NCBI GenBank assembly: GCA_004764695.1
Contig: SMSO01000037.1
Coordinates: 1-35,779, forward strand
From: Schizochytrium sp. TIO01
Taxonomy: Eukaryota > Protista > Bigyra: Labyrinthulomycetes
Direction: 5' to 3'
Length of the DNA: 35,779 nt
Below, in pieces: positions 4,502 to 11,724 of the stretch. The first letter of the stretch is position 1. Each line of letters begins with the position of its first letter. A model generated the notes under the pieces. That model was not told the origin of the DNA. It saw nothing but the letters and a program-made list of their open reading frames with translations, and ran no database searches. The position numbers and the translations under genes are program-made.

Positions 4502-6550
4502 TTACTGTTTACATTCTAGTTCTCTCTGGAGGTAGCTGATTTCCCATTCAGCCCACTTTGCAAAGTCATCAGGATCCATATCCTCCTTAAATTCAGCCTC
4601 ACCAAACCCGATAAACATTGGCTTCTTGCCTTTCTCATGATTGCACATAATATTGTCGCGATCTATATCGCCAAGTAAAATACCAAGTGAGTGAATCGAC
4701 TTGAGAGCGGCTACCGCCTCTTCCTTAAACTTATCCGTAAGGTCGTCATCTGTAACGTGCTCGCCTGCAAAACTTAAACCAAGCCCGTACATGAACCCAT
4801 CTTGAAACAATCCAAGACCAAGAAACTCTGGTACACACTTGCCTTGAAGCGGAAGCAAGGAATCGTAAACGATAGCTTCGAATCTGAGATGGTCGACGAA
4901 ATACGATTCCTTGAAAGTATCGAGCAACTTTAGTACAGCATCTACATTACCTTTAGTTGCATGCGGAATTTTACAGCGGGAAATCCTTCCCGGTTCACCA
5001 TCGTGACGAAACCAGCCAAGGAACTTTTCGTCTTTCAGTTGGTGCAAAGATGTCCAATCAGACCGAGGTGGGATTTTTTTATCTGGAGAGGGGGGAAGCC
5101 CGTAGAACTCTGTGTCAGGTACTTCGAGACTGAAGACATAATCGTCATCGTTGGTATCCTGGTTAATTTCCTTGTAAACATCGTTTTCAGCCTCGCAGCC
5201 CATGGGTAGCTTTTCATGTCTACACTCACTAGAGCAGGGCGTAAGGAGCGTCCCTTCGCTGTTTGTAAATTCTGGTACGCGGTCCTCTTTTGCAATCATA
5301 ATACCCAGTGCCAGAAGCTGTGCTGCACTTAGACAGTTTCTGTCAATATCCCCCACAGCATCACATTTAACAGATGGTGTAATTAGCAGATTACCAGCGC
5401 AATCACGAAAGAACAGAGCTGTATCGAAGTAGTTCGAGTAGATACCTACTAGAGACTTGTTGCATAGCATCCAAGTGTACAATTTACGAATCACTGAGAA
5501 CCTCGAATGACGTTGTGACGTGCAATCGACATCACGACAGTCATGATTGCAGTATTCATCAGAAAGATCAACGTGATGGAATTCAGGTCTTTCAAGTGCA
5601 CCAACGACCCAAGGTTTAAATTGATCCACATAGGGTTCTAAACCAATTGCAAAATCCACTGGGCCCCGTGTTTCGGTGTAGTCTCCAAAACGGTGGTTTG
5701 ATGTGTCGGGGACTTGCTCAATTCCTCCGTCTTGAAGGATTTCAAGTACTGCTCCCAAGAGAATAGACATATGTGGGATTATTGAAGATGCACCTGCGGT
5801 ACCTATATCCTTGAAGTACTGTATTGAGGATTCTAGCGAAATCGTAGTTTGCCTTGCCTGTAAAGTTTCGATGTACCCAGCATCACGACAGTAGTTTAGT
5901 AAAGTTTCCATCTCCAATTTATGAACATGCATGGGTGATGCACGGTATGCAGAAGTGTCAGTAGAGCACTTTACCTGTAACTCTTTGCGAGGTAACTCAG
6001 GAGTTGCACTGGAGAGTGCCTGGAATACTGAGGTTTTATGATTATGCAAGGAATTATATGCAGCCTCTTCCCTACGAAGACCATAGAGCCTCCGATACAT
6101 GACCATTTCGTTTTCTATTGTTTCCTTCTGAAGGTACCTGAGTCTTATATCGAGACGCGCACCTCTTTTCTCGGCGCATCGAATCTGCGAACATAAGTCC
6201 ATTGCAGATTCCAAGCATTCTCTTTCAAGTCTGGAGTGCTCTTCAGGTTGCTCTTCCATACCTTTCTTAGTTCCGGACCGGTCAGAACGCAGCTCGCTTC
6301 GGCTGAGCGCACAGTCTTCATTGGGGGGATTCTCCAGAATCCTCGTCTTAAGTCTCGCAATATCTTTGGTACAGGATATGCGTTTGGCCTTTAGGTTCTC
6401 GAACTCTGCGACATTGCAAGAATGCAAAAATATCGGACGACTTAAGATATCGAGAGCCGATACTTTTGAGCTAGCGGAGCGTGTATTTACATGCCCTACC
6501 CAGGTCCTGGGCAAGGGGGGGCGCGAGCTGATTGTGACAAACCGCCTCAT
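4502..6550 (-). CDS. Coiled-coil + degenerate PD-(D/E)xK nuclease + Cys/His cluster + pseudokinase (SPOK/Crinkler-like architecture), ~682 aa
   Basis: Uninterrupted ORF. First ATG is at 6550 (the track starts at a TTG at 6646). Collinear similarity to the 9754-11724 protein: DFAIG, VIRKLYTWM, GIYSNY, FFRDCAGNLLITP, LQGKCVPEFLG, IHSLGILLGDIDRDNI. Catalytic motifs are altered: GELK->GALE, QLYNY->KLYTW, HGD->LGD, DFS->GFG. Confidence 0.85.
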   Translation of the reverse strand: MRRFVTISSRPPLPRTWVGHVNTRSASSKVSALDILSRPIFLHSCNVAEFENLKAKRISCTKDIARLKTRILENPPNEDCALSRSELRSDRSGTKKGMEEQPEEHSRLERECLESAMDLCSQIRCAEKRGARLDIRLRYLQKETIENEMVMYRRLYGLRREEAAYNSLHNHKTSVFQALSSATPELPRKELQVKCSTDTSAYRASPMHVHKLEMETLLNYCRDAGYIETLQARQTTISLESSIQYFKDIGTAGASSIIPHMSILLGAVLEILQDGGIEQVPDTSNHRFGDYTETRGPVDFAIGLEPYVDQFKPWVVGALERPEFHHVDLSDEYCNHDCRDVDCTSQRHSRFSVIRKLYTWMLCNKSLVGIYSNYFDTALFFRDCAGNLLITPSVKCDAVGDIDRNCLSAAQLLALGIMIAKEDRVPEFTNSEGTLLTPCSSECRHEKLPMGCEAENDVYKEINQDTNDDDYVFSLEVPDTEFYGLPPSPDKKIPPRSDWTSLHQLKDEKFLGWFRHDGEPGRISRCKIPHATKGNVDAVLKLLDTFKESYFVDHLRFEAIVYDSLLPLQGKCVPEFLGLGLFQDGFMYGLGLSFAGEHVTDDDLTDKFKEEAVAALKSIHSLGILLGDIDRDNIMCNHEKGKKPMFIGFGEAEFKEDMDPDDFAKWAEWEISYLQRELECKQ

Positions 6551-9753: not shown

Positions 9754-11724
9754 ATGGCGACAAGCAACCGACTTAGCATGAACAGTCGCTCATCGCAGCG
9801 AACTGACAACGCGGGGGACAGTGGTGCGCGTTTCGATATTGTCCGCTTTGAGAGACGTCTAGAGGTGCAACAGGCTAGACTTGAGAAACTTGAAGAAAAA
9901 TTCGAACAATTGAAAGAGAAGCTACCTGACGGTGCTGCTCTTGTCCTTGTTGATGTTTTAAATGGGGACGTTACGTTTGAGAATGCAAAAGAAGACGTGA
10001 AGGAAAATACGAATTTAGAGGATCGAGAAAAGTTTTTTTTTCTTGATGCTCTGCGCATAGCAAAGAAGATCCTTCAAATGGAATCTGAAATTGAGACAAC
10101 CGTCACAAAGATTAGAGAATTTGAGTCTGGAGGCGGTGAAGAAGGAGAAAGCATTTCGCGCTTCTCCGGATCAGTTTGGGAATCCCTTGGGTGTGACTTA
10201 CCTCCAATCGCTCAGCATGCTTCGCAAACTACATCGAACACCAAAGTTGTTGGCGAGAACTACAATTTTGCCCCTCGAAAAGTCATCAGACTTTCCATGG
10301 AAGTCTTCAAGAATTACTGTCACCTTGAAGGATTTATAGATGAACTTCATGAAAAATCAGCCGATGTAGAGGTTGGTCGTCTACTCAATTTTTCAACGGA
10401 AGCTCTTTTCCTTAAATCCGAGAGTTCTATTGGGCTTTGTTTTTCGCAAGTTTTCCAAGCAGTCCTCAGGCTTCTGCTCGTCGAAGAAGGAGATGTCCGG
10501 CTCGGCTACACGTCCGACTTCCCGGTAACGGTTGACCTAAAGCCAGACTTTGCTGTTGGGACCATCACAAACAATCAAGTGTCAATATTTAATACTTTAC
10601 TTGTTGGTGAGTTGAAGGGTCTTGCTTCTTGGGAAGGTGATTTTTACACCCGTTGGTGTGATCTGGGTGGCCCCCATAACAGAGACAATTGCAAAGATTC
10701 TGAGAGGCACCGCCAAGTGTCTCCAATTAGACAATTGTATAACTACATGGTCAAATCTGGCAGCTTTGTTGGTGTTTACTCCACCTATGGATACACTGCG
10801 GCTTTCTTCCGAGATTGCGAAGGTACCCTTCTTACAACTCCAATGCTCCCAGGAGAAAGCTGCATGCGAGAGCACGGACTAAGTATACCACAGTTCCTAG
10901 CCTTAGTCACCATGATCGCTTTGAAGAAAGAGGTGCCACTATTTTTAGATGGTAGAGGAAACGGCATCTTGGTGTCGTGCACAGGTTCAGGAGATTGTGC
11001 GATTCACGGTAAATTACACCAGAACCTTCCTGATGTATTTAAATGGGATCAAAAATGTTTATGGAAGCCGAGTCGAGGTGGTGCTAGTAGTAGAGGAGGT
11101 AGAGGAGGTGGGACAGGGGCGCAGCTGAACAACCTCCTTTACAAAGAGCATGACACTCCCATCACCTGGGGTGATCTCTACAATTGCAAGTACATTTCTG
11201 ACTGCTACACAGGGAATGCAGTTGAGTGCGAGATCATGGGCGAGCGAGCAGTGGTTAAATACAACGATTTCGGCGATCACGAAGATGCTGATGAGCGTCT
11301 TGACCAGATTGATTTTGAAGCTGAAGTCTACGCAAACCTGTCTGACTTGCAGGGGGATTGTATTCCCAAATACCTGGGCCATGGCTCCATTACCGATACT
11401 GATGGATACCAGTATGGTTTTGCTACCTCTTATGCAGGTGAGGCACTCTCGTATGAATCTCTTGATTCTCTCACTGAAGAGTTCAAGACAAGCGTCAAGG
11501 ATGCCCTAGACAAGATACACGCGCGTGGTGTTTTGCATGGCGACCTGAGACTTCCGAACATCCTGCAGTCGAAGGACGATCCTAAGAAGGCAGTTTTTAT
11601 CGACTTCAGTCATTCAGAGATATATGACGACCCTGATGATCCAGTCTTTCAAAGCCTCGCAAAATATGAGAAGGAGAACCTCGTCAAGCTCTTGAAAGGC
11701 GAAAAAATCAAACAAGTTCTTTGA
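9754..11724 (+). CDS. Coiled-coil + PD-(D/E)xK restriction-like nuclease + Cys/His cluster + protein kinase-like domain (SPOK/Crinkler REase-kinase architecture), ~656 aa
   Basis: Intronless ORF, first ATG at 9754. N-terminal heptad region (RLEKLEEKFEQLKEKL). Nuclease motifs: KPDF (D at 10546), GELKG (E at 10609, K at 10615), QLYNYM (10732). Cys/His cluster CTGSGDCAIH. Kinase motifs: AVVK, FEAEVY, LQGDCIP, HGDLRLPNIL (11536), FIDFS (11602). Confidence 0.88.
   Translation: MATSNRLSMNSRSSQRTDNAGDSGARFDIVRFERRLEVQQARLEKLEEKFEQLKEKLPDGAALVLVDVLNGDVTFENAKEDVKENTNLEDREKFFFLDALRIAKKILQMESEIETTVTKIREFESGGGEEGESISRFSGSVWESLGCDLPPIAQHASQTTSNTKVVGENYNFAPRKVIRLSMEVFKNYCHLEGFIDELHEKSADVEVGRLLNFSTEALFLKSESSIGLCFSQVFQAVLRLLLVEEGDVRLGYTSDFPVTVDLKPDFAVGTITNNQVSIFNTLLVGELKGLASWEGDFYTRWCDLGGPHNRDNCKDSERHRQVSPIRQLYNYMVKSGSFVGVYSTYGYTAAFFRDCEGTLLTTPMLPGESCMREHGLSIPQFLALVTMIALKKEVPLFLDGRGNGILVSCTGSGDCAIHGKLHQNLPDVFKWDQKCLWKPSRGGASSRGGRGGGTGAQLNNLLYKEHDTPITWGDLYNCKYISDCYTGNAVECEIMGERAVVKYNDFGDHEDADERLDQIDFEAEVYANLSDLQGDCIPKYLGHGSITDTDGYQYGFATSYAGEALSYESLDSLTEEFKTSVKDALDKIHARGVLHGDLRLPNILQSKDDPKKAVFIDFSHSEIYDDPDDPVFQSLAKYEKENLVKLLKGEKIKQVL

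What the first reader, a model, noticed from the sequence alone, without database searches (positions are those of the whole stretch)
4502..11724. Head-to-head pair: an active nuclease-kinase and a doubly inactivated but intact paralog
Seen: two diverged paralogs are divergently oriented, with starts about 3.2 kb apart. The minus-strand copy keeps a full 2-kb ORF and the structural and Cys/His residues but has lost catalytic residues in both domains (ELK->ALE, QLYNY->KLYTW, HGD->LGD, DFS->GFG). Inference: loss of exactly the catalytic positions with the frame retained suggests selection as a pseudoenzyme (antidote, dominant-negative partner or decoy), which would make a two-gene toxin/inhibitor module.
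Basis: partly seen in the sequence, partly recalled or inferred. Interest (0 to 1): 0.8.

Follow-up and report, generated by a model that had tools for sequence, protein, structure and literature searches.

The report
Disarmed spore-killer-like gene beside armed paralog
Near a chromosome end of a marine protist (likely Aurantiochytrium) sit two distantly related nuclease-plus-kinase genes resembling fungal spore-killer toxins; one has lost its DNA-cutting residues yet appears conserved and likely expressed, probably as a repurposed, possibly mitochondrial protein rather than an antidote to its neighbour.

Summary
The divergent pair is real: 29% identity, first ATGs 3.2 kb apart, in a likely thraustochytrid (Aurantiochytrium-type) subtelomere. 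Both genes belong to the nuclease+kinase class of Crinkler-related and Spok proteins.

'Doubly inactivated' is half right.
- Nuclease: loss of its lysine is old, shared by a supported clade whose other members keep an intact kinase or lack one.
- Kinase: it keeps the lysine, glutamate, catalytic aspartate and asparagine. LGD is a polymorphism (HGD in 3 of 4 runs laid). Only DFG>GFG remains, a change seen in the active plant kinase ILK1.

The disarmed copy looks selected (14 of 32 shown variants synonymous against 22% expected; only in-frame indels) and likely transcribed. It starts with a mitochondrial-presequence-like leader, as does its relative P0003.

Nothing supports a two-gene toxin/antidote module. 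The armed copy carries its own kinase, Spoks differing at only 41-54 residues act as independent killers, and no linked pair was found elsewhere. Binding was not modelled. The 'active' copy has an interrupted coding-like 5' region.

Verdict: new variant of a known kind; antidote reading about 0.2.

The parts
4502..6550 (-). Disarmed paralog, 682 aa from the first ATG (P0002 residues 33-714): leader, helical region, nuclease-like domain, Cys/His motifs, kinase
   Evidence: Contigs of X1 and X6 end at 6552 while X19 goes on, a weak hint for the 5' end
6449..6550 (-). Predicted mitochondrial-presequence-like leader (5 Arg, 1 Lys, no acidic residue in the first 30; first acidic residue at 34); inferred from composition only
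   Evidence: null 20 of 5289 interior 30-mers; same trait in relative P0003 from its second Met
5282..5956 (-). Nuclease-like domain with D331 kept, ExK>ALE and QxxxY>KxxxW; Cys/His insert and RDC motif kept (boundaries approximate)
4505..5044 (-). Kinase domain: K573, E590, D660, N665 kept; DFG>GFG; His>Leu658 polymorphic (boundaries approximate)
9109..9753 (+). Coding-like 5' region of the armed copy: ATG 9109 with a 56-codon frame, then coding-like stretches interrupted by two frame changes and one in-frame stop; real lesions or assembly errors
   Evidence: no Pfam hit
9754..11724 (+). Armed paralog from the first in-frame ATG (P0001 residues 27-682), all nuclease and kinase motifs present
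10270..10935 (+). Nuclease domain PD...ExK...QxxxY (D291, E312, K314, Q353, Y357) with Cys/His insert (boundaries approximate)
11158..11721 (+). Kinase domain, K528, E548, HGD 621-623, N628, DFS 643-645 (boundaries approximate)
14414..33776 (.). Context: 5S(-), 385-bp repeats, 18S-5.8S-28S(+), 412-bp and 362-bp repeats; the LORE-TEARS chromosome-end layout described for Aurantiochytrium limacinum

Best explanation
The two genes are distant paralogs of the nuclease+kinase class that includes Crinkler-related effectors and Spok killers; the plus copy keeps all catalytic motifs and would likely act as a self-contained poison-and-antidote protein, while the minus copy belongs to a clade that lost the nuclease lysine and is likely a domesticated, non-cutting protein, possibly imported into mitochondria, rather than its neighbour's antidote. 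Shown: homology, motif states, clade structure, HGD/LGD polymorphism, synonymous excess, in-frame indels. Inferred: transcription (the runs are only guessed to be RNA); mitochondrial import (composition only); that the disarmed nuclease fold still binds nucleic acid or protein while the GFG kinase works as a nucleotide-binding scaffold or an atypical kinase; and that the head-to-head layout is a relic of an old duplication or of subtelomeric shuffling.
For: Tree (19 rows): P0002, P0003, P0004 and P0008 form a clade (97/97) with P0001 as sister (97/94). P0003 has EYE for ExK with intact HGD and DFG; P0008 has EFR and no kinase; P0022 has EYQ; P0004 is a fragment with an intact kinase and no ExK region. 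So nuclease disarming is older than, and independent of, kinase erosion.

Selection: 14 synonymous of the 32 shown in-ORF differences against 21.8% expected, p 0.005, pN/pS about 0.36 (40 of 270 differences were shown). Seven one-base indels fall outside the ORF and only net +6 indels inside, p 0.005 (12 of 15 rows shown). The model of the core is confident (pLDDT 81.5, pTM 0.81).

Leader: basic and acid-free in P0002 and in P0003 from Met93, which also has an R-x-F-S motif; null 20 of 5289; absent from P0001.

Literature: in Spok the kinase of the same protein gives resistance (PMC6660238, passages). [quoted passage not shown] GFG occurs in the active kinase ILK1 (PMC9403797, passages).
Against: The clade's other members come from unnamed sources, so their hosts and neighbours are unknown. 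No targeting predictor was available, and Met93 of P0003 was chosen after the fact. pN/pS 0.36 is moderate and rests on a subset. The minus copy has extra losses (Q, Y, DFG Asp; 10 of 41 conserved columns changed against 6 for P0001 and P0003), which fits ongoing erosion. Whether GFG is fixed in other strains could not be seen. The nuclease fold was not confirmed by structure search, because the kinase filled the hit lists. The two genes are in fact adjacent, which an antidote model predicts.
Confidence: 0.5

Rival explanations
1. The minus copy is a trans-acting antidote or dominant-negative partner of the plus copy, working like a resistance-only Spok allele through residual kinase activity or by forming inactive heterodimers.
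For: Adjacent and divergent. Nuclease-dead, kinase-intact Spok3 K240A and the natural strain-A Spok2 allele keep resistance without killing (PMC6660238, passages). PsCRN115 is suggested to repress PsCRN63 in a dominant-negative way through dimers (PMC5289972, passages). P0001 is the sister of the disarmed clade. The kinase keeps K, E, D, N and usually H.
Against: Only 29% identity, whereas Spoks differing at 41-54 residues act independently (though Spok1 resists all of them). The plus copy has its own intact kinase. The leader points to a different compartment. One clade member has no kinase at all (P0008).
Confidence: 0.2
2. The minus copy is a slowly decaying paralog under relaxed selection in a recombining subtelomere; its open frame reflects recent or partial loss of function.
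For: Stepwise extra losses (Q353, Y357 and D643 equivalents; His polymorphic). More than one version in run X19. Broken Spok copies are common in fungal genomes (PMC12693581, section 18). The plus copy's 5' region also looks interrupted.
Against: Synonymous excess and in-frame-only indels. The nuclease Lys loss is shared by proteins only 35-45% identical to it, implying long persistence after disarming. 31 of 41 conserved columns are kept.
Confidence: 0.18
3. Both proteins are conflict effectors aimed outward or at viruses (competing microbes, or the mirusviruses resident in Aurantiochytrium), the minus copy acting as a decoy that absorbs inhibitors of the armed nuclease-kinase.
For: Homology over both domains to Crinkler-headed proteins. 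Subtelomeric position beside an LRR-like gene and a Fic-like ORF. A virus-like locus carries an armed member (L001), and Pandoravirus DUF5898 proteins are the best whole-length viral fold match.
Against: No Crinkler header in either copy. No relative in viral contigs (0 of 34 pattern matches confirmed). The presequence-like leader argues against export.
Confidence: 0.12

Closest known systems
Spok spore-killer proteins of Podospora and Fusarium (PMC6660238, PMC9972908, PMC12693581)
   Same: Domain order of helical N-terminus, PD-(D/E)xK nuclease with QxxxY, Cys/His cluster, atypical kinase. The kinase-less relative P0008 maps to SPOK2_N (PF27653) clusters at 0.94, 193 of 256 features. Resistance-only alleles exist there.
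   Different: Host is likely a stramenopile. Cys/His spacing is not the Spok C-x3-C-x13-C-x5-H-x7-H, and one cluster is inserted inside the nuclease. No drive is shown. The disarmed copy is a deep paralog, not a near-identical allele, and has a presequence-like leader.
Crinkler-related (CR/CRN) REase+kinase proteins such as CRN8 (Zhang et al. 2016, not held; seen through review PMC5289972, passages)
   Same: Profile match over nuclease and kinase to 7 Crinkler-headed hits (probability 100, 327 columns; nuclease part alone 96.2, E 2.7e-9).
   Different: No Crinkler N-terminal header in either window protein; Crinkler-headed proteins form a separate clade; the host is likely a free-living protist.
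PsCRN63/PsCRN115 active and suppressing pair of Phytophthora sojae (PMC5289972, passages)
   Same: An active and a suppressing paralog of a CR family, proposed to act by dimerisation.
   Different: That pair is near-identical (recalled, no call); here identity is 29% and no binding is tested.
GFG pseudokinases with atypical activity: plant ILK1 (PMC9403797, passages) and CASK (its GFG motif is recalled)
   Same: DFG>GFG with the other catalytic residues kept.
   Different: Unrelated kinase family; activity of the window protein is untested.

Membership tests
Spok | PD-(D/E)xK motif with QxxxY | tested here: met
   Plus copy D291, E312, K314, Q353, Y357, motif level only; the minus copy fails it
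Spok | Cys cluster C-x3-C-x13-C-x5-H-x7-H just upstream of the kinase | tested here: not met
   Cys positions: P0001 C435, C441, C461; P0002 C471, C475, C484; different spacing
Spok | C-terminal kinase with catalytic Asp | tested here: met
   D623 and D660; kinase fold Z 15.0 (rmsd 5.0, 184 aligned) and Z 14.8 (rmsd 3.2, 163 aligned)
Spok | N-terminal coiled coil | not tested
   Charged, helical-looking region seen in the sequence; no predictor run and the N-termini were not folded
Spok | Sequence relationship to Spok proteins | tested here: inconclusive
   Only a language-model feature match for relative P0008; no direct alignment to a Spok
Spok | Killing of non-carrier meiotic products, with self-resistance | not testable with these tools
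   Needs crosses or heterologous expression
Crinkler/CR effectors (REase+kinase type) | Homologous REase+kinase C-terminal pair | tested here: met
Crinkler/CR effectors (REase+kinase type) | Crinkler N-terminal header (PF20147) | tested here: not met
   No hit in P0001, P0002 or the upstream frames; present in 7 of 56 relatives scanned
PD-(D/E)xK nuclease fold | Structural match to a solved restriction-like nuclease | tested here: inconclusive
   Two-domain models returned only kinases; nuclease-only profile found 0 PDB sequences
Pseudokinase (sequence definition) | Loss of at least one of the VAIK Lys, HRD Asp or DFG Asp | tested here: met
   DFG Asp>Gly680 in the window copy; Lys573 and Asp660 kept
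Pseudokinase (sequence definition) | No phosphotransfer activity | not testable with these tools
   Needs an assay; the GFG kinase ILK1 is active (PMC9403797, passages)
Two-gene toxin/antidote module | Conserved linkage of the two genes in relatives | tested here: inconclusive
   No host genome held; 2 related loci of 3.4 and 2.8 kb, too short upstream, no partner seen
Two-gene toxin/antidote module | Physical interaction or rescue | not tested
   The complex-prediction queue was full and no job ran; rescue needs the bench

The most novel reading that the evidence does not exclude
A Spok-like killer system outside fungi: a thraustochytrid subtelomere carries an armed nuclease-kinase next to an anciently disarmed, mitochondrion-addressed paralog that serves as a compartment-specific antidote or has been domesticated into a mitochondrial nucleic-acid-binding regulator, with a whole clade of such disarmed proteins in marine protists.
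Probability: 0.15. Interest if true: 0.8.

Novelty: new variant of a known kind. Interest (0 to 1): 0.45.

Why it matters
Nuclease+kinase toxins are known as oomycete effectors and fungal meiotic drivers, and how the kinase neutralises the nuclease is unresolved (PMC9972908, PMC12693581, passages). A natural series offers a way to test this in a tractable protist: armed (P0001), nuclease-disarmed with intact kinase (P0003), disarmed without kinase (P0008), and disarmed with a GFG kinase (P0002, P0014). If the leader is a true presequence, it would be a case of a selfish toxin gene domesticated into an organelle protein. If neither holds, it is one more diversified conflict-gene family at a chromosome end.

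Tried and rejected
- Word-index homolog searches with P0001, with the minus ORF, and with the nuclease alignment at longer lengths found nothing. The full HMMER scan did, so these blanks are limits of sensitivity.
- No whole genome is held.
- Viral contigs: 0 of 34 pattern matches confirmed. Phage records: no match. Metagenomes: 2 of 110 confirmed, with no paired paralog on these short contigs.
- No third copy or remnant in the window by tblastn. No mobile-element termini among the repeats listed around the pair (18 direct families, 25 of 31 inverted pairs shown).
- No RNA holder is listed on record. The flanks without cover in X2 and X6 are not counted as proof of silence.
- Reads were laid on 3000-6900 only, so expression, variants and the 5' breaks of the plus gene are untested. 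The word shares of X2 (0.37) and X6 (0.33) exceed the 0.23-0.24 that the minus gene can give, an indirect hint that they hold more of the region.
- Complex prediction never ran because the queue was full: no verdict.
No nuclease structure appeared.
- The Atlas does not hold P0001 or P0003.
- Two peptides were not found in 4 supplement files of PMC12221091; the large table s003 and the 'store' files could not be read.
- Zhang et al. 2016 is not held.
- A simple intron that would join the plus copy's upstream frames was looked for by eye, from the GTAAG at 9517; none was found.
- Rejected: bacterial reading with TTG starts; 'HGD>LGD is a fixed inactivating change'; a tight bidirectional promoter (first ATGs are over 3 kb apart).
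- Literature searches without a report of this system.
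Full report
Host and setting. The window is eukaryotic: 5S at 14414-14532(-), 18S-5.8S-28S at 22038-27560(+), with tandem units of 385, 412 and 362 bp around them. This matches, in order and orientation, the LORE-TEARS chromosome-end layout of Aurantiochytrium limacinum (bioRxiv 10.1101/2023.06.15.545109, parts 1-2 of 4 read). Five of the six best-holding runs have 63-68 million letters, close to its ~62 Mb genome; the sixth has 127. The host is therefore likely an Aurantiochytrium-type thraustochytrid; this is inferred, as no taxonomic match of the 18S was run. 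An earlier scan note on the same genome also says 'likely a thraustochytrid'. The pair ends about 2.7 kb inward of the 5S gene.

Observation. Both ORFs exist and are 29% identical over 594 columns. First ATGs are at 6550(-) and 9754(+). All four motif changes are present and rare among relatives. But the minus kinase keeps K573, E590, catalytic D660 and N665, and the nuclease keeps D331. Of the four runs laid on 3000-6900, three carry His at 658, one of them in part, so LGD is an allele and not a fixed lesion. None of the 40 differences shown (of 270) touches A350, E352, K388, W392 or G680; the other 230 were not visible.

Family. A full HMMER scan with the pair found 1238 proteins at E<=0.001 and 10 at E<=1e-30. 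Of 56 longer relatives scanned (from 152 fetched), 7 carry the Crinkler header; the window proteins do not. Profile comparison with those 7 spans nuclease and kinase (probability 100; nuclease part alone 96.2). The kinase-less relative P0008 maps to SPOK2_N clusters at 0.94 (shuffled queries reach 0.9 in 4-10 of 100). Models of both cores are fair to good (pLDDT 77.2 and 81.5) and confirm the kinase fold. The nuclease fold is supported by motifs and homology only. The best whole-length viral fold match is to Pandoravirus DUF5898 proteins (TM 0.34).

History of the lesions. In a 19-row tree (fragments P0013, P0019, P0022, P0028 and most distant hits left out), P0002, P0003, P0004 and P0008 form a clade (97/97) with P0001 as sister (97/94). 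A quicker 26-row tree adds P0022 and P0028 to that clade, with weaker support (88) for the sister position. Every member whose ExK region is present lacks the lysine (ALE, EYE, EFR, EYQ). The kinase is intact in P0003 and P0004, absent in P0008 and GFG in P0002. P0014 is a long-branch protein outside that clade, eroded in both domains. So nuclease disarming is old and came first; kinase erosion is later and patchy.

Selection and expression of the minus copy. Among 32 shown in-ORF differences, 14 are synonymous against 21.8% expected (p 0.005; pN/pS about 0.36). This is a best-supported subset, with multi-hit codons counted per site. Seven one-base indels lie outside the ORF and only net six-base insertions inside (12 of 15 rows shown; p 0.005). 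Runs guessed to be RNA (X1, X2, X6) hold contigs across nearly the whole ORF. Contigs from two studies stop at 6552 while X19 continues, a weak hint of the 5' end. RNA status is a guess, and X1 also covers the flanks. X19 holds two versions of some stretches (9 and 39 differences at 4026-4337), either alleles or further copies.

New lead. From ATG 6550 the first 30 residues have 5 Arg and no acidic residue; P0003 from its second Met has 7 Arg, none acidic, and an R-x-F-S motif. Only 20 of 5289 interior 30-mers meet such a test, and P0001 does not. This resembles a mitochondrial presequence (criteria recalled; no predictor run; the P0003 start was chosen after the fact).

The armed copy is not pristine. 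Upstream of ATG 9754 lie an ATG at 9109 and further frames, interrupted by two frame changes and a stop. Two of them score as coding above the 99th percentile of spacer DNA (0.081 against 0.032; 0.110 against 0.073); the first does not (-0.006) (the model was trained on window ORFs, and the AT-rich spacer makes a lenient null). This may be a broken N-terminal extension or assembly error.

Mechanism. In Spok the nuclease kills and the kinase of the same protein protects: K240A keeps resistance only, D667A is toxic (PMC6660238, passages; PMC9972908, passages). The plus copy has both sets of residues, so it would not need a partner. Spok2/3/4 differ at 41-54 residues yet act independently, although Spok1 resists all of them and antidote-only versions exist (PMC12693581 passages and sections 17-18). 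Cross-protection at 29% identity is thus unlikely but not excluded. A dominant-negative precedent is proposed for PsCRN63/115 (PMC5289972, passages). GFG does not prove inactivity (ILK1; PMC9403797, passages). I favour a domesticated non-cutting paralog, possibly mitochondrial (0.5), over antidote (0.2), decay (0.18) and outward effector or decoy (0.12).

Against my reading. The genes are adjacent and related as sister lineages. The minus copy has more changes at conserved columns than its relatives (10 of 41 against 6). Linkage could not be tested: the two related loci are 3.4 and 2.8 kb. No interaction model ran.

Novelty. The architecture is known. A deep, nuclease-disarmed clade with presequence-like leaders in a likely thraustochytrid was not found in print (searches) or in the scan's earlier notes. 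Zhang et al. 2016 could not be read and may already describe inactive REase versions. PMC12606086, PMC12221091, PMC12957317 and PMC9758233 were seen as passages only and did not mention this locus. One supplement of PMC12221091 was unreadable and could bear on protein detection. Verdict: new variant of a known kind, interest 0.45.

Noticed in passing
window 33777-34170 and 35127-35480: Two copies of a ~350-bp element inside the 362-bp repeats: terminal direct repeats 276 nt apart that begin TG and end CA, a purine tract before the second repeat, and a tRNA-box-like motif inside; resembles a miniature terminal-repeat retrotransposon (TRIM; label recalled).; no tRNA gene.
   Followed up: partly
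window 11828-12340 (-): Fic/DOC-like ORF (Pfam E 1.1e-5) converging on the armed gene; its motif has Lys where Fic enzymes usually have His (recalled), so it may be another degenerate enzyme.
   Followed up: no
window about 1100-3093 (+): Intron-rich gene with repeated leucine-rich-repeat-like exons, read by eye.
   Followed up: no
window 3655-3785: Short dispersed repeat: raised depth and many different loose ends in all four runs.
   Followed up: no
window 12732-13184 (-): 150-aa ORF with no Pfam hit.
   Followed up: partly
window 9109-9753 (+): Coding-like but interrupted region upstream of the armed gene; real lesions or assembly errors.
   Followed up: partly
L001 3-2105: An armed family member lies directly before an ORF with an NPPF methyltransferase-like motif (motif recalled) on a gene-dense, virus-like contig, hinting at viral carriage and a restriction-modification-like pairing.
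   Followed up: no
window 15123-15478: 89 copies of a GCTT microsatellite at the start of the 385-bp repeat array; it creates several spurious ORFs.
   Followed up: no
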